Below are positions 44,448-49,857 of a stretch of DNA of 64,000 nt, in pieces. This stretch comes from Escherichia coli (GTDB taxonomy: Bacteria > Pseudomonadota > Gammaproteobacteria > Enterobacterales > Enterobacteriaceae). The stretch is from assembly GCF_036507355.1 (NCBI RefSeq), contig NZ_AP027877.1. One strand, written 5' to 3'. Numbering within the stretch: the first letter of the stretch is position 1; each line of letters opens with the position of its first letter. A program made the position numbers and the translations under genes. The notes under the pieces were generated by a model, which worked only from the letters and a program-made list of their open reading frames with translations, made no database searches and had not been told where the DNA came from.

Positions 44448-44652
44448 CGGTTCTGGCGGTAGGTTTATCGTCGATAAAGGCGAAAGAGGTGTTTCCGGCT
44501 CTTAAGAAATATTTACGCACATGCACCAGCATTACAGAAAATAAAACCTGCGATACATTTTAATCAATAAGGTTGCTTTACCAAGCTTCCATCGATATTG
44601 ATGGAAAATTCATTAGACCTAATATGAACAGAATGTTGCTCATCATCTTTAT

Positions 44653-45339
44653 CTAATATTTGATTAACAAAAAAAACGTATTTTTATCAAATTCATAATT
44701 ATCACATCCCTCTCCACTAAATGATATAGCTCTAAAATCATATTCATTACATGAGTATCTTTTCATCAAAATAGAGAGGAATGTTTCATTAATTGATTTT
44801 AATACAAACCATTTTCTCCTAACAAGTTTGTAGTTTAATGTTTTTATATGATAATTATTTAAACTGGGGAGAAATGAATGCATATCATTCAATTTTACAT
44901 CAAAATATATTTTTTTACCTGCCGTAATTTCCACCCATCGGCTCAAATTCAAATCAAGCTCAAAGGGACAAAAGCCTCCTAGATAGTCTAAGCTAATATT
45001 TCCTGATGTAATCAAGAATTCGTCATCACACAAAGCATCAAATACATCTCCATTTCCTTTTTGGAAGTTCTTTGGATAATATATTCTGGGGAGAAAATAC
45101 GATTTAGTACTACTGTTATAAAAAGTTATAGTGGCTAAAATATTTTCAGCATGTGGCTTAACCACCAATTTAACAACAACATCATTTGTTAATTCATTAC
45201 TTATATTTTCCTCTGGCGCTAAATTATGGCTAAGATAAATAATTGGTTTCCCATTGTCACTTCTTCGTTCAAAACCGAATCTGTATTTTTTTACAAAAAG
45301 ATTCTCATTATCTATTGCAATTGCAATAGATAATGGCAA
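44653..45339 (-). CDS. AT-rich hypothetical protein, candidate immunity partner of the upstream HExxH protein; start uncertain
   Basis: ORF 44653..45339 begins at TTG; an ATG with signal-like peptide MKRLAFYNLNYVVLMVFFFVFC lies upstream in another frame across T-homopolymer runs. Confidence 0.35.
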   Translation of the reverse strand: MPLSIAIAIDNENLFVKKYRFGFERRSDNGKPIIYLSHNLAPEENISNELTNDVVVKLVVKPHAENILATITFYNSSTKSYFLPRIYYPKNFQKGNGDVFDALCDDEFLITSGNISLDYLGGFCPFELDLNLSRWVEITAGKKIYFDVKLNDMHSFLPSLNNYHIKTLNYKLVRRKWFVLKSINETFLSILMKRYSCNEYDFRAISFSGEGCDNYEFDKNTFFLLIKY

Positions 45340-45512
45340 AAAACAAAGAAAAAAACCATCAGTACAACATAATTTAGATTATAGAAAGCCAACCTCTTCA
45401 TCTTATTTCCCCGTCAACTCATCAAAACATTTTTCTATCTCTTTTATTTTATCCTCTACTTTTTTTGCTAACATATTCTCATCTTGAGCTTCAATATCTT
45501 CATTATTTAATT

Positions 45513-46205
45513 TTATATAAAATATCTTTCAACATTATATGCATTCTCAAATAACTGATCTTTACGCAATGTAACCAGATCATTAGCCACTGAAACATGT
45601 TTCTCATAGCTAACTTCATCCTTATTACTTGTTGCGAACTTATTAATACCCGTATAATCCTGAGTCCACATACCACCTTTTTGATTGTCACCCCAATACC
45701 AAAATATATGGGACATTTCATGGCAAAGTGTACTTACATGAGAGTCTCTACCTGTAACCGACTGTTTTATACCATGTCTGTATTCAAAATGCGCTCCGAT
45801 ATTTACAATGTAAGGAGGATCAAGATGTGGACTAATAAAAGCAGCAAATTCATTGCAGTTCGTATAATCTTTATAGCTTTCGATCGTCAAACCATTTGCA
45901 ATCGTCATTATTCGTCTGATGCCATCCATTATGAATAGTCTCGCTTGCATTCGTTTCCCAGTATCTTCCCCAACCTTTCTGATTTTTATAATGTCCTCGC
46001 CTTTAAGGCCAAAAACTTTAATAAAATCTCGTTGTTGCTCCCCCTCCCATGACATAATATCATCTGCTCTTTTCAATAAAACCATTTTCTGTGCTTTACA
46101 AGCCTTACTCATCATTATTTTAAATTTATTTGTAATTTTTTGCGGTACTACACATACTTGCGACTCGGGTTGTGAAGTCCCACTAGTATTATTATTCCCT
46201 GCCAT
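45513..46205 (-). CDS. HExxH zinc-metallopeptidase-like protein, candidate T6SS effector (230 aa)
   Basis: ATG at 46205 preceded by GGAGGGG; motif HEMSH followed by ..WTQDYTG.. (aspzincin-like spacing); N-terminal 16 codons of track ORF 45513..46334 come from the IS600-like terminus. Confidence 0.5.
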   Translation of the reverse strand: MAGNNNTSGTSQPESQVCVVPQKITNKFKIMMSKACKAQKMVLLKRADDIMSWEGEQQRDFIKVFGLKGEDIIKIRKVGEDTGKRMQARLFIMDGIRRIMTIANGLTIESYKDYTNCNEFAAFISPHLDPPYIVNIGAHFEYRHGIKQSVTGRDSHVSTLCHEMSHIFWYWGDNQKGGMWTQDYTGINKFATSNKDEVSYEKHVSVANDLVTLRKDQLFENAYNVERYFI

Positions 46206-46349
46206 AATGCCCCTCCGGCTCAATATAAAAAGCATCCGAAAATAACAATTGGACTTTAATTTCCTGTGCTGTATCTGTATAAAAGTGAGGTAGCCTGAGT
46301 TTAACGGACACTCCTTCCTGAAATAGAATGGCATCAGAAGGAGCTAATA

Positions 46350-46652
46350 ATGAGCAGAAAAACCCAACGTTACTCTAAAGAGTTCAAAGCCGAAGCTGTC
46401 AGAACGGTTCTTGAAAATCAACTTTCGATCAGTGAAGGCGCTTCCCGATTATCTCTTCCTGAAGGCACTTTAGGACAATGGGTTACCGCCGCCAGAAAAG
46501 GGCTCGGTACTCCTGGTTCCCGCACGGTGGCTGAACTGGAATCTGAAATTCTGCAACTGCGTAAGGCGTTAAATGAAGCTCGCCTTGAGCGAGATATATT
46601 AAAAAAAGCAACAGCGTATTTTGCACAGGAGTCGCTGAAAAATACGCGTTAA
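46350..46652 (+). CDS. IS3-family transposase OrfA (IS600-like)
   Basis: MSRKTQRYSKEFKAEAVRTVLENQLSISEGASRLSLPEGTLGQWV..; HTH plus leucine zipper. Confidence 0.85.
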   Translation: MSRKTQRYSKEFKAEAVRTVLENQLSISEGASRLSLPEGTLGQWVTAARKGLGTPGSRTVAELESEILQLRKALNEARLERDILKKATAYFAQESLKNTR

Positions 46653-46687
46653 TCGAACAATGGCGACAACAATTTCCCATTGAAGCG

Positions 46688-47506
46688 ATGTGTCAGGTAT
46701 TTGGTGTATCCAGGAGCGGTTATTACAACTGGGTACAGCATGAACCCTCAGACAGAAAACAAAGTGATGAGCGGCTAAAACTGGAGATTAAGGTGGCACA
46801 TATCCGCACTCGCGAAACATATGGAACCCGGCGGCTCCAGACGGAGCTGGCAGAGAATGGCATCATCGTTGGTCGTGACCGACTGGCACGTCTTCGTAAG
46901 GAGCTAAGGCTACGCTGTAAGCAGAAACGCAAGTTCAGAGCGACTACGAACTCGAACCACAATCTGCCAGTTGCGCCAAATCTGCTGAACCAGACGTTCG
47001 CTCCTACAGCACCAAATCAGGTCTGGGTGGCGGACCTGACGTATGTTGCCACACAGGAGGGATGGTTGTACCTCGCTGGCATCAAAGATGTTTATACGTG
47101 CGAAATTGTCGGCTACGCCATGGGAGAGCGCATGACAAAAGAGCTGACAGGTAAAGCCCTGTTTATGGCGCTCAGGAGCCAGCGCCCACCTGCCGGGCTA
47201 ATCCACCACTCTGATCGAGGTTCACAGTACTGCGCATACGATTACCGGGTCATACAGGAGCAGTTTGGTCTGAAAACATCAATGTCGCGTAAAGGTAACT
47301 GTTACGACAACGCTCCGATGGAAAGCTTCTGGGGAACGCTGAAAAATGAGAGCCTGAGCCACTATCGTTTTAATAACCGGGATGAAGCCATCTCAGTAAT
47401 ACGGGAATACATTGAGATTTTCTACAATCGTCAGCGTCGTCACTCTCGTCTGGGGAATATCTCCCCGGCAGCCTTCAGGGAAAAATATCATCAGATGGCT
47501 GCTTAA
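46688..47506 (+). CDS. IS3-family transposase OrfB, DDE integrase domain (IS600-like)
   Basis: ..WVADLTYVATQEGWLYLAGIKDVYTCEIVGYAM..HHSDRGSQYCAYDY.. Confidence 0.85.
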   Translation: MCQVFGVSRSGYYNWVQHEPSDRKQSDERLKLEIKVAHIRTRETYGTRRLQTELAENGIIVGRDRLARLRKELRLRCKQKRKFRATTNSNHNLPVAPNLLNQTFAPTAPNQVWVADLTYVATQEGWLYLAGIKDVYTCEIVGYAMGERMTKELTGKALFMALRSQRPPAGLIHHSDRGSQYCAYDYRVIQEQFGLKTSMSRKGNCYDNAPMESFWGTLKNESLSHYRFNNRDEAISVIREYIEIFYNRQRRHSRLGNISPAAFREKYHQMAA

Positions 47507-47530
47507 AAAAAGAATAAATGGTAGTGTCCG

Positions 47531-49237
47531 CTATTGCCAGTACACCTCAAATATTTCTGTATATCCCTCTCTGTCTGTTTCACCACGCGTCTGTGTGCCA
47601 TCCTCAAAAAAGGCAATATACTGCGTCTCTGAATACGGTATCCCGTCATCGTCCGTAAAATGGAACTGGAGGGTATATTTTTCAGGATCATCTTCATCGT
47701 CACCGCCATCACCTCCTCCGTCACTCCCTGCGGGATTGCCACTATCCTCTCCGGAGTCATCACTGCCATCATCACTGCTCTCATCCTCCGGAGCCTCCAG
47801 CACCGCCGGCTGCATCGTCCCCACCGGTGTCCCCGCACTGCCCCCACCGTTCAGGTTTATCTTCGGCCCGGCAATATCCACTCCGCCCGGCTGAATGACG
47901 ATAAACGAGCCACCCACCTTCAGGCTTATCCGGCTGCTGCTCTCCAGCACGATATCCCCGTCCACTTTTATCCCCAGCGCGCCACTCACCTTCTCCGCCA
48001 GGTCCCCCTTCACCACCAGGCTGTGTTTCCCCTCCACCAGACTGATATGGTTCCCCGTCGTCTTATGCTCCTGCTTCCCTTCCACCGTCACTTTACGGTC
48101 GTTTCTGACGTACAGACCGTCATCGTGACTCACGCTCACCGTCCGGTCATTCGTCACCTTCAGAGTCTGGTCATTACGTACCGTGATACGCCGGTCGTTC
48201 GCCACCGTGATACTCTGGTCGTGGCCCCCCTCTTTTTTTGTACCGACCTGAACCGTCTGACCCTTCACCACCGTTATCTTCTGGTCGTTACCGATGGTTT
48301 CCGTATGGTCATGTTTTACATCCGTTGTCCGGTCGTTGAGCACCTCCGTATCCATGTTCTTCTGCGCATGGATATACACCTGCTCATTACTGGTGGCGTC
48401 TTCAAACCGCAGCTCGTTAAATCCGCTTCCTTTATAGGTTTTTGACCGTATCGTCATCTGCGTCTTCGTTCCCGGCAGGTCGCCCGGGGAGCGGTTGTCC
48501 TCATGGTACGTCCGCCCCATGATTATCGGCTGGTCCGGGTCTCCGTTCAGAAAATCAACAATCACCTCCTGGCCCACCCGCGGTATCGCCAGATTACCGA
48601 ACCCCGGCCCCGCCCACGCCTGCGATACCCGCACCCAGCATGAACTCGCCTCCGTCATCCCGTGATAACGGTCCCAGTGGAACTTCACCCGTACCCGGCC
48701 ATGTTCATCGCAGAAGATTTCCTCTCCCGCAGGCCCGGTGACAATGGCACTCTGCGGCCCGTCCACCTTCGGTTTGCTTTGCAGCCGTGGACGCCACGTC
48801 CGGTCCGCCGGTATCACCTCTAACTGATTTCCCAGCGTGGTTCCTCTCCCTTGGCTGCCGTGCAGCGCCTGCGGCTGGCTTCCTGACAGTATGCTCTGTA
48901 CCACCTGCCATTCACGGTTCAGCATCTTCTGCGGATGCCCCGTCAGCGTAAACCGCGTTCCCGGCCACAGCCTCGGCGAATTACTCTGCCCTGTGGCCTT
49001 TTCCGCATCACTGCGCAGGCTCTCCATCTGGTACAGCGTGAAATCCTTGCCGTGCTGCTCATCCTTGAACCTTCCCGGATAATCAAATATTTCATACTGC
49101 GCCAGCTGTCCGTTCAGGTTCTCACCCTGCTGCTCATACATCCCCGGCCAGTCCGGCACCTTAAACGTGTAATCCTGGCTCTGCACCGACGACGGGCGGA
49201 CATGCGCCTCATACGCTACCGCCCGGGTTTCCGGCAT
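47531..49237 (-). pseudogene. vgrG: vgrG lacking ~270 N-terminal residues; 3' end runs into the IS600-like element
   Basis: Starts within the gp27-like region (..VRPSSVQSQDYTFKVPDWPG..), contains gp5 OB-fold segment (..VDGPQSAIVTGPAGEEIFCDEHGRVRVKFHWDR..) and Asp/Glu/Gly-rich C-terminal extension; last 6 codons are IS sequence. Confidence 0.8.
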
Positions 49238-49338: not shown

Positions 49339-49857
49339 TTATGCTTCCAGCGGTGCACGCCAGTCATCGGCACCAGAAGTACCGGATTTGATGTGCTCCC
49401 ACTCAACCTTACGGTATGCCAGTGATACTGCGAGCAATTGCGTAAACTCACGCTGTGCAGGGTCCTGGCAGTGCGGCATGTGCAGGTTCATGTCCACAAT
49501 CGTCGCGTCAGTAAGACGTGTGGTGAAGTAGTGCTCCTGCTTGCCTTCAACTGAAGTACGCCACCAGTGCAGCTCCACTTTCGGCAGCATTTCACCGGAG
49601 GCCAGCGCGTTGTACAGCAGCGGAACGGCTTTGTTCAGCGCCACGGTGAAAATGAACGGTTTGTGCGCGCGCTGCCCGGAAGGTTGACCAGACTGTGGAT
49701 CGGTTGGAACAGTAACGTTATGCAGAAACTCCTGCACCAGCATTTCATCTTCGTGTCCCTGCACGTAGATATTGCCGACAGAATCTGCGGTGAAAGCACC
49801 GGCAGTGATGTTCCCCTGGGTCTGACCTGTAATTGAAATGTAACATGGGGTTGGCAT
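49339..49857 (-). CDS. hcp: T6SS tube protein Hcp (172 aa)
   Basis: MPTPCYISITGQTQGNITAGAFTADSVGNIYVQGHEDEMLV..HKPFIFTVALNKAVPLLYNAL.. Confidence 0.9.
   Translation of the reverse strand: MPTPCYISITGQTQGNITAGAFTADSVGNIYVQGHEDEMLVQEFLHNVTVPTDPQSGQPSGQRAHKPFIFTVALNKAVPLLYNALASGEMLPKVELHWWRTSVEGKQEHYFTTRLTDATIVDMNLHMPHCQDPAQREFTQLLAVSLAYRKVEWEHIKSGTSGADDWRAPLEA

What the first reader, a model, noticed from the sequence alone, without database searches (positions are those of the whole stretch)
45311..45330. Perfect 20-bp palindrome at the 5' end of the candidate immunity ORF
TCTATTGCAATTGCAATAGA is fully self-complementary and lies where the 228-aa ORF begins, between the HExxH gene and its partner. 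It could be an operator, a recombination or slippage hotspot, or an RNA hairpin controlling expression; it sits next to T-homopolymer runs that separate an upstream signal-peptide-like ATG ORF from the main reading frame.
Basis: seen in the sequence. Interest (0 to 1): 0.35.

Follow-up and report, generated by a model that had tools for sequence, protein, structure and literature searches.

The report
Palindrome from an inverted duplication
The palindrome is real and is 30 bp long, but it is a lineage-specific by-product of a small inverted duplication inside the signal-peptide codons of a frameshifted type VI secretion immunity gene; I found no evidence that it is a regulatory site.

Summary
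The 20-bp palindrome exists and is the core of a perfect 30-bp palindrome (45306-45335), far beyond chance.

- **Coding context.** It lies on the minus strand in the codons P-L-S-I-A-I-A-I-D-N. This is the signal-peptide cleavage region of the protein encoded just downstream of an M35-like HExxH type VI effector.
- **The ORF is a remnant.** Intact E. coli alleles start at ATG 45401 and have T8 where the window has T7 (45349-45355). They have T9 where the window has T8 (44669-44676).
- **No conservation.** Four other lineages of the gene family lack the palindrome and any equivalent hairpin: Salmonella Moero, two run-assembled contigs and the E. coli UM146 type.
- **Origin.** Relative to those lineages, this lineage carries 12 extra nucleotides (TTGCAATAGATA). 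They are the exact reverse complement of the preceding 12. This is the signature of replication template switching, probably combined with a TTGCAA tandem duplication.
- **Population variants.** One strain has lost a TTGCAA unit. About a tenth of alleles have an uncompensated change in the outermost pair.
- **Uniqueness.** The sequence occurs only at this locus, in 12 of 5426 E. coli genomes.

Operator, terminator and frameshift-stimulator readings each fail on position, spacing or conservation. Interest is low.

The parts
45306..45335 (.). Perfect 30-bp zero-spacer palindrome CATTATCTATTGCAATTGCAATAGATAATG. On the minus (coding) strand it encodes (P)LSIAIAIDN(E), the c-region and AxA cleavage site of the signal peptide.
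   Evidence: As RNA it forms a 13-bp stem with a 4-nt loop, -15.7 kcal/mol, z -6.4.
45309..45320 (-). The 12 nt (TTGCAATAGATA, codons IAID) present in this lineage only. They are the exact reverse complement of the 12 nt immediately upstream (45321-45332, TATCTATTGCAA).
   Evidence: MAFFT protein alignment places a 4-residue gap at IAID in all four other lineages. DNA comparison. Reverse-complement identity checked.
45315..45326 (-). Tandem TTGCAA x2 at the centre of the palindrome. One unit is missing in strain GCA_018580695.1 (loci L018 and L019), which leaves a 24-bp perfect palindrome.
   Evidence: The L018 haplotype is otherwise identical to the common L003 haplotype, so this is a secondary contraction.
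45349..45355 (-). T7 run (A7 on the plus strand), the frameshift site. Intact alleles have T8, one has T9. In the window this run disconnects the signal peptide from the mature protein.
45338..45343 (-). Second T run (T6). It is invariant in all 20 alleles examined and ends 2 nt before the palindrome.
45312..45401 (-). Short ORF from the true start codon. A GGGG Shine-Dalgarno-like stretch lies about 7 nt upstream, and in intact alleles the ATG sits 1 nt after the M35 stop. The ORF encodes the N-terminal part of the signal peptide. In the window it stops at TAG (45314-45312) inside the 3' arm of the palindrome.
44653..45339 (-). 228-aa ORF: the body of the periplasmic immunity-type protein, cut off from its start by the T7 frameshift and truncated at its C-terminus. 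The TTG start is only mechanical and has no Shine-Dalgarno sequence upstream.
   Evidence: The exact protein is BED23691.1 of E. coli.
44669..44676 (-). 3' T8 run. Alleles with T9 read on for 30 more residues to the family-conserved C-terminus ...IDGSLVKQPY.
45513..46205 (-). M35-like HExxH effector gene. In the window a T4 run (45519-45522) replaces the T5 found in all 12 E. coli genomes, giving a 230-aa product in place of 267 aa.
46286..47552 (+). IS600 inserted in the 3' end of the vgrG gene that precedes the M35 gene. This is context showing that the module is decayed.

Best explanation
The palindrome is a mutational product, not a signal. It lies in the codons for the signal-peptide cleavage region of a periplasmic immunity-type protein, encoded just after an M35-like type VI effector gene. 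In the ancestor this stretch probably read CAT TATCTA TTGCAA ATG (..S-I-A|N-E-N..), as it still approximately does in the other lineages. In the lineage of this E. coli locus, 12 nt were added that are the exact inverted copy of the preceding 12 nt. The most economical route has two in-frame 6-nt steps. First, slippage duplicated the self-complementary hexamer TTGCAA. Second, a quasipalindrome template switch occurred: the nascent strand folded back on TTGC-AATT-GCAA, copied TAGATA from its own left arm, and returned to the template at ATG. The product, ..S-I-A-I-A-I-D-N-E-N.., is still a workable signal-peptide end, so it was tolerated. The hairpin it forms in mRNA or single-stranded DNA is incidental. 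Shown: the coding context, the 12-nt lineage-specific insertion, its exact inverted identity, the lack of conservation, and its uniqueness in genomes. Inferred: the template-switch mechanism, the order of steps, and neutrality.
For: (1) Five lineages of the gene were compared. MAFFT places a 4-codon gap exactly at IAID in the other four, and their DNA reads xCT xTT GCA | AAy GAr, with UM146 more diverged. (2) The extra 12 nt equal the reverse complement of the preceding 12 nt, 12 of 12. The chance of this for a random insert is 4^-12. (3) Homologues have no comparable structure at the same place (z -0.7, -2.1, +1.5, -0.3, against -4.3 to -4.6 here), and the sequence with the 12 nt removed loses the hairpin. 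(4) Within the lineage the whole 1.75 kb is at least 99.4% identical, so invariance of the palindrome carries no information. The variants that do exist shorten it without compensation: a C>A change in the outermost pair in L020-L026, and loss of 6 bp in L018 and L019. (5) The 30-mer occurs only at this locus, in 12 of 5426 E. coli genomes. The 20-mer has one unrelated hit among 100,044 species representatives and two unrelated coding hits in viral contigs. (6) No Rfam family matches. (7) Template switching that makes imperfect inverted repeats perfect is an established mutational process in E. coli (PMC7202029, PMC5941160), and it changes several adjacent codons in coding genes of other organisms (PMC8604942).
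Against: The outgroups are distant (37-54% protein identity), so the ancestral DNA is inferred rather than observed. No intermediate allele (0 or +6 nt) was found on an older haplotype; the only 24-bp allele is a recent contraction. A two-step path is needed, because a single switch at TTGCAA would give the 24-bp form. Absence of conservation does not exclude a function gained recently in this lineage. The hairpin is stable (-15.7 kcal/mol) and sits beside a slippery, polymorphic T run.
Confidence: 0.72

Rival explanations
1. Recoding module. The hairpin stimulates -1 ribosomal frameshifting (or acts together with transcriptional slippage) at the upstream U run. T7 alleles such as the window's would then still make full-length exported immunity protein, and T-run length would act as a dial.
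For: In the T7 allele the zero frame contains U UUU UUC, a formal X XXY YYZ heptamer. A -1 shift there yields exactly the protein of the T8 allele. A stable hairpin follows. T7 recurs on at least three haplotypes. A homologue (L014) is also frameshifted in its poly-T tract.
Against: The spacing is wrong. The stem starts 12 nt after the heptamer, and only 2 nt after the second run, whereas the known optimum is 5-9 nt. Most alleles are T8 and need no shift. The hairpin exists in those in-frame alleles too, where a -1 slip would be harmful. Homologues have T runs without any hairpin. The window's copy also carries a 3' frameshift, a frameshifted effector and an IS600-disrupted vgrG, which is what decay looks like.
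Confidence: 0.05
2. RNA element acting on the transcript: an attenuator or terminator between the effector and immunity genes, or a stabilising stem-loop at a processed end.
For: The consensus scan flags it as the only terminator-like site in 44900-45700, on the coding strand. The 151-nt region folds better than shuffles, z -2.95.
Against: The stem has only 4 G-C pairs of 13. The U5 run begins 7 nt after the stem rather than next to it. It lies 67 nt inside the ORF, so termination there would abolish immunity. It is absent from all other lineages.
Confidence: 0.05
3. Operator for a dimeric DNA-binding protein, for example Fur, which controls some E. coli type VI clusters.
For: Perfect dyad symmetry. 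A 15 of 19 match to the Fur-box consensus overlaps the arm at 45294-45312, and only 3.4% of simulated AT-rich regions of this size reach that score.
Against: The site is inside the coding sequence, with no promoter-like site overlapping it. The palindrome is unique in E. coli genomes, so there is no regulon. It is not conserved in homologous loci. The Fur-box match is post hoc, has 4 mismatches, and uses only one arm.
Confidence: 0.03
4. DNA-level fragile site. The palindrome extrudes as a hairpin or cruciform during replication and raises indel rates locally, driving the nearby T-run changes and the loss of the hexamer.
For: Three of the four indel-polymorphic sites in 1.75 kb lie within 200 nt of it. 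The centre itself contracts by 6 bp in one strain.
Against: The 3' T run (660 nt away) and the M35 T run (about 190 nt away) vary just as much. The T6 run closest to the palindrome (2 nt away) never varies. Homologues without the palindrome are also frameshifted in their T runs. Homopolymer length alone explains the pattern.
Confidence: 0.08
5. Pure coincidence of codon choice for a repetitive peptide (SIAIAID), with no inverted duplication event.
For: ATTGCAAT (Ile-Ala-Ile codons) is self-complementary by itself. The same 20-mer turns up in unrelated viral genes encoding ..SIAIAIE...
Against: The nine flanking pairs on each side must also match. The expectation is about 8e-6 for this region. 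The extra 12 nt being an exact inverted copy is not explained.
Confidence: 0.05

Closest known systems
Quasipalindrome-associated template-switch mutations (E. coli thyA hotspot; lacZ QP5/QP6 reporters; Ripley model)
   Same: A short imperfect inverted repeat becomes perfect because the new sequence is copied from the opposite arm. The change is a multi-nucleotide, in-frame insertion, and the outcome is a perfect palindrome (PMC7202029, PMC5941160, PMC8604942).
   Different: Here the event is inferred from comparison with distant homologues, not observed. It needs an additional 6-bp tandem duplication. It is fixed in a natural gene lineage inside signal-peptide codons.
Programmed -1 frameshift cassettes (dnaX; IS3-family orfA-orfB such as the IS600 copy next door)
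   Same: A U-rich slippery heptamer in the zero frame is followed by a stable stem-loop. The shifted product equals the full-length protein.
   Different: The spacer of 12 nt (or 2 nt) is outside the working range. Most alleles are in frame. The arrangement is not conserved in homologues.
Homopolymer contingency tracts (phase-variable genes)
   Same: T7, T8 and T9 length polymorphism on several haplotypes switches the reading frame of a surface or periplasmic protein gene.
   Different: The tract is short and reversible switching within a strain has not been shown. The same locus carries other inactivating lesions, and losing immunity while keeping the toxin would be harmful.
Type VI metallopeptidase effector-immunity pairs (P. 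aeruginosa VgrG2b-PA0261; E. coli PAR M35-AKO63_2956, PMC10673891)
   Same: The order vgrG, HExxH toxin gene, then a gene for a signal-peptide protein is the same. In the published pairs the downstream protein neutralises the toxin.
   Different: Sequence identity of this pair to the published pairs was not tested. The Pfam match of the toxin to Aspzincin_M35 is below threshold (E 0.0014). The downstream protein belongs to no Pfam or NCBIfam family.

Membership tests
Template-switch / inverted-duplication mutation product | The new sequence is the exact reverse complement of adjacent sequence | tested here: met
   TTGCAATAGATA equals the reverse complement of the preceding TATCTATTGCAA, 12 of 12
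Template-switch / inverted-duplication mutation product | Outgroups lack the new sequence (derived state) | tested here: met
   A 4-codon gap in all four other lineages. Caveat: the outgroups are only 37-54% identical.
Template-switch / inverted-duplication mutation product | A pre-existing short inverted repeat that can prime the switch and the return | tested here: met
   The self-complementary hexamer TTGCAA and the flanking CAT...ATG are present in the sequence with the insert removed
Template-switch / inverted-duplication mutation product | The event is observed directly, or intermediates are recovered | tested here: not met
   The only shorter allele (24 bp, L018) sits on the common haplotype and is a secondary loss. 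Two metagenome scans found nothing.
Programmed -1 ribosomal frameshift signal | X XXY YYZ heptamer in the zero frame | tested here: met
   U UUU UUC in T7 alleles, including the window
Programmed -1 ribosomal frameshift signal | Stimulatory structure 5-9 nt downstream of the heptamer | tested here: not met
   The stem starts 12 nt after the heptamer and 2 nt after the second T run
Programmed -1 ribosomal frameshift signal | The out-of-frame arrangement is conserved among homologues | tested here: not met
   Most alleles are in-frame T8 (110 + 93 contigs against about 25). The Salmonella and L013 homologues are in frame.
Intrinsic terminator | G+C-rich stem followed immediately by a U tract | tested here: not met
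   4 G-C pairs of 13. The U5 run starts 7 nt after the stem, and the site passes the loose scan only marginally.
Transcription-factor operator | Located at a promoter and recurring or conserved | tested here: not met
   It is inside the ORF, no promoter-like site overlaps it, it is unique in 5426 E. coli genomes, and it is absent from homologous loci
Periplasmic type VI immunity protein | Encoded directly downstream of the effector on the same strand, in diverged loci | tested here: met
   The M35-like gene precedes it in E. coli, Salmonella L011, L014, L013 (where the effector is split) and UM146 L027
Periplasmic type VI immunity protein | N-terminal export signal | tested here: met
   All full-length members of the family (55 sequences) begin with a basic n-region, a hydrophobic core and an AxA-type site. 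The AF2 model has helix 2-27. No dedicated signal-peptide predictor was available.
Periplasmic type VI immunity protein | Neutralises the cognate toxin | not testable with these tools
   [not shown]
Phase-variable contingency locus | Homopolymer length polymorphism that switches the reading frame, arising recurrently | tested here: met
   T7, T8 and T9, with T7 on at least three haplotypes
Phase-variable contingency locus | Reversible high-frequency switching within a clone | not testable with these tools
   Needs read-level or experimental data

The most novel reading that the evidence does not exclude
The U run plus the newly made hairpin work together as a lineage-specific recoding or phase switch. 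This switch would set how much of the immunity protein receives its signal peptide, and so tune self-protection against the M35-like toxin. The recurrent T7 alleles would then be an 'off or low' state rather than decay.
Probability: 0.04. Interest if true: 0.5.

Novelty: new member of a known kind. Interest (0 to 1): 0.15.

Why it matters
It matters mainly as a correction and a caution.

- **Annotation.** The 228-aa "hypothetical protein" with a TTG start is the stump of a 279-aa exported protein. Its true start is ATG 45401, and two homopolymer frameshifts have broken it.
- **Interpretation of palindromes.** This is a clean natural example of a statistically striking perfect palindrome that needs no regulatory explanation. 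Template switching and slippage can write one into permissive coding sequence, here a signal-peptide end, and alter four residues at once.
- **Locus context.** The whole M35 effector-immunity module is decaying in this strain, so the palindrome is unlikely to have any phenotype here.

Tried and rejected
- **Rfam.** A permissive scan of 44500-46400 gave only a spurious plant miRNA-precursor hit (E 0.53, 21 bits against an 85-bit gathering score).
- **Terminator.** The site is flagged by the loose scan but fails on U-tract position and G+C content.
- **Fur box.** A 15 of 19 match lies at 45294-45312, local p about 0.03. It is post hoc, inside an ORF and not conserved.
- **Repeat family or REP-like element.** The 30-mer occurs only at this locus in 12 of 5426 E. 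coli genomes. The 20-mer gives one unrelated Muribaculaceae hit among species representatives and two unrelated viral coding hits.
- **Intermediate alleles.** Two metagenome scans, one with a variable gap and one with the downstream flank, found nothing, not even the known allele.
- **The 24-bp allele as an ancestral intermediate.** Rejected, because its haplotype equals the commonest modern one.
- **Termination-reinitiation into the main frame.** The only nearby ATG (45308-45306) is in the wrong frame, read directly from the sequence.
- **Protein comparisons.** Sequence searches of both proteins against PDB gave nothing meaningful. NCBIfam gave nothing.
- **First AlphaFold run.** With 5 sequences the model was unusable (pLDDT 37.8). 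It was repeated with 52 sequences.

Full report
**1. Observation**

The 20-mer TCTATTGCAATTGCAATAGA is at 45311-45330. It is the core of a perfect, spacer-less 30-bp palindrome, CATTATCTATTGCAA|TTGCAATAGATAATG, at 45306-45335.

Nothing else in the window comes close. The next longest perfect palindromes have 9-nt arms. In 300 Markov simulations of the window the longest arm was 12. The analytic expectation is 6e-5 per window and about 0.005-0.02 per 5-Mb genome.

**2. Context**

All relevant genes are on the minus strand. In order of transcription they are:

- hcp (49339-49857);
- a vgrG that has lost its 5' end to a 738-bp deletion (junction 49212/49213) and carries an IS600 (46286-47552) in its 3' end;
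- an HExxH gene (45513-46205) with a sub-threshold match to Aspzincin_M35, which RefSeq names "peptidase M35" in other strains;
- the 228-aa ORF (44653-45339);
- a vgrG fragment, a DUF4123 adaptor gene and a Tle1-type phospholipase gene.

The exact 228-aa protein is on record once, as E. coli BED23691.1 from a 4.64-Mb genome.

**3. The ORF is a frameshifted remnant**

Twelve of 5426 complete E. coli genomes carry the same locus at 99.4-99.6% identity. Aligning ten of them, plus nine further loci recovered through protein variants, shows three homopolymer differences.

| Site (minus strand) | Window | Other alleles | Effect in the window |
|---|---|---|---|
| T run at 45349-45355 | T7 | T8 in most, T9 in one, T7 in several | Signal peptide disconnected from the mature protein |
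| T run at 44669-44676 | T8 | T8 or T9, each in many | Last 30 residues lost |
| T run at 45519-45522, in the M35-like gene | T4 | T5 in all | Toxin shortened from 267 aa to 230 aa |

With T8 and T9 the gene is 279 codons long. It starts at an ATG one nucleotide after the M35 stop codon, which corresponds to window 45401. It begins MKRLAFYNLNYVVLMVFFLCFLPLSIAIAIDNEN....

The C-terminus of this 279-aa form (...IDGSLVKQPY) is the one conserved in distant homologues. So the 279-aa form is the intact one.

In the window, translation from ATG 45401 gives a 29-residue peptide. It stops at TAG 45314-45312, inside the palindrome. The TTG at 45339 is only the ORF finder's start and has no ribosome-binding sequence.

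Allele counts in public data are about 110 contigs for T8/T8 (249 aa), 93 for T8/T9 (279 aa) and 11-25 for one T7 form. T7 occurs on at least three haplotypes.

**4. What the palindrome encodes**

In the intact frame the 30 bp read (C)CA TTA TCT ATT GCA ATT GCA ATA GAT AAT G, which is P-L-S-I-A-I-A-I-D-N. This is the end of the hydrophobic core and the AxA cleavage region of the signal peptide.

A profile search found about 100 clusters of this unannotated family. All 55 full-length members begin with a signal peptide followed by a (K)KYGYG-like motif.

**5. Conservation**

Within the E. coli lineage the palindrome is nearly invariant, but so is the rest of the 1.75 kb (14 SNP columns), so this carries no information.

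The variants that exist all reduce the palindrome:

- A C>A change in the outermost pair (P>Q) in L020-L026, with no compensating change.
- Loss of one TTGCAA unit in one strain (L018 and L019). This leaves a 24-bp palindrome on a haplotype otherwise identical to the commonest one, so it is a recent contraction.

Four other lineages of the locus were recovered:

- Salmonella Moero (L011, 52% protein identity);
- two contigs assembled from sequencing runs (L013 at 47%, L014 at 54%);
- the E. coli UM146 type (L027, present in about 518 genomes, 68% nucleotide identity in the M35 gene only).

None has the palindrome or any inverted repeat with arms of 7 nt or more there. Folding the equivalent 80 nt gives z-scores of -0.7, -2.1, +1.5 and -0.3, against -4.3 to -4.6 in this lineage.

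**6. Origin**

MAFFT aligns the five proteins with a single 4-residue gap in all outgroups, exactly at I-A-I-D.

| Lineage | DNA around the cleavage site |
|---|---|
| Outgroups | GCT CTT GCA / AAC GAA AGT; ACT ATT GCA / AGA GAA AGT; UM146 more diverged |
| This lineage | TCT ATT GCA [ATT GCA ATA GAT] AAT GAG AAT |

Written in the other equivalent register, the extra 12 nt are TTGCAATAGATA. This is the exact reverse complement of the 12 nt immediately before them, TATCTATTGCAA. The outer three pairs (CAT/ATG) were already there.

An exact inverted copy of adjacent sequence is the signature of replication template switching. That process is known to convert imperfect inverted repeats into perfect ones in E. 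coli (PMC7202029; genome-wide support in PMC5941160) and to rewrite several neighbouring codons at once (PMC8604942).

A single switch at the self-complementary hexamer TTGCAA would give the 24-bp form. The 30-bp form also needs a tandem duplication of TTGCAA. The coherent order is duplication first, which creates TTGC-AATT-GCAA, a sequence able to fold back. A fold-back then copies TAGATA and returns at ATG. Both steps are 6 nt and in frame. This pathway is inference, since no intermediate was found.

**7. Functional readings tested**

- **Operator.** The site lies 67 nt inside the ORF and no promoter-like site overlaps it. It is unique in E. coli genomes and absent from homologous loci. A 15 of 19 Fur-box match overlapping one arm is marginal (local p about 0.03) and post hoc.
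- **Terminator.** The stem has 4 G-C pairs of 13 and the U run starts 7 nt downstream. Termination there would abolish immunity.
- **Frameshift stimulator.** T7 alleles do contain U UUU UUC in the zero frame, and a -1 shift would restore the protein. But the stem begins 12 nt after that heptamer and 2 nt after the second run, outside the 5-9 nt range that works in known cases (established knowledge of dnaX and IS3-family signals). Most alleles are in frame.
- **Fragile site.** The T6 run 2 nt from the palindrome never varies. Distant T runs, and T runs in palindrome-free homologues, do vary.
- **Known RNA family.** None matches.

**8. Is the partner an immunity gene?**

This remains an inference from context, but it is strengthened.

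- The gene order toxin then signal-peptide protein holds in five diverged lineages.
- A published E. coli M35 toxin is neutralised by its downstream gene, and VgrG2b-PA0261 is an analogous pair (PMC10673891).
- With a 52-sequence alignment, AlphaFold gave a confident model (pLDDT 85.2).

I infer, from my own knowledge of those entries, that the matched part of AsaP1 is its propeptide. The tools did not report which residues were aligned.

**9. Verdict**

The palindrome is real, 30 bp long and statistically exceptional. It is best explained as the fossil of a small inverted duplication in permissive signal-peptide codons of a gene that is itself inactivated in this strain. I put this at about 0.7. 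It is a new instance of a known kind of mutation and of low interest as a candidate regulatory element.

Noticed in passing
[not shown]
   Followed up: partly
window 44669-44676 (minus-strand T8): The 3' homopolymer is T8 or T9 in the population. The T8 form lacks the family-conserved last 30 residues yet is the commonest allele (about 110 contigs against 93 for the intact form). The UM146-type homologue is frameshifted at the equivalent place.
   Followed up: partly
window 45519-45522: The M35-like effector gene has T4 where all 12 complete E. coli genomes with this locus have T5. This removes its last 37 residues and uncouples it from the downstream start codon.
   Followed up: yes
window 46286-47552 and 49212/49213: IS600 is inserted about 90 nt before the end of vgrG. 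A 738-bp deletion, relative to E. coli FDAARGOS_943, removes the vgrG 5' end and the hcp-vgrG intergenic region. The whole spike-effector module is therefore inactivated in this strain.
   Followed up: yes
L027 (E. coli UM146, NC_017632.1 2041250-2046903): About 518 complete E. coli genomes carry a diverged M35-like gene (68% nucleotide identity). In UM146 the downstream immunity homologue is split into 87-aa and 155-aa ORFs, with a further 3' frameshift. I did not check whether this holds for all 518.
   Followed up: partly
L014 positions about 1210-1250: A 54%-identical homologue from a sequencing-run assembly has a T10 run in its signal-peptide (poly-Phe) codons. The run puts the start codon out of frame. 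This is the same kind of lesion as the window's T7, in an independent lineage.
   Followed up: no
L015 2476-2541 (Muribaculaceae RIAZ01000026.1): The only hit to the 20-mer among species-representative genomes sits at the centre of a perfect 66-bp palindrome in an unrelated Bacteroidota genome. It could be coincidence, an assembly artefact or a real long hairpin.
   Followed up: no
window 45294-45312: A 15 of 19 match to the Fur-box consensus overlaps one arm of the palindrome. It is the best match in the window and marginally unusual for the AT-rich region (3.4% of simulations).
   Followed up: partly
window 44600-46340: The M35-immunity module has 32% G+C against 51% for the window. In 1.75 kb its population polymorphism includes 4 indel sites (three homopolymers and the hexamer) against 14 SNP columns, so an unusually large share of variation is frame-breaking.
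   Followed up: partly
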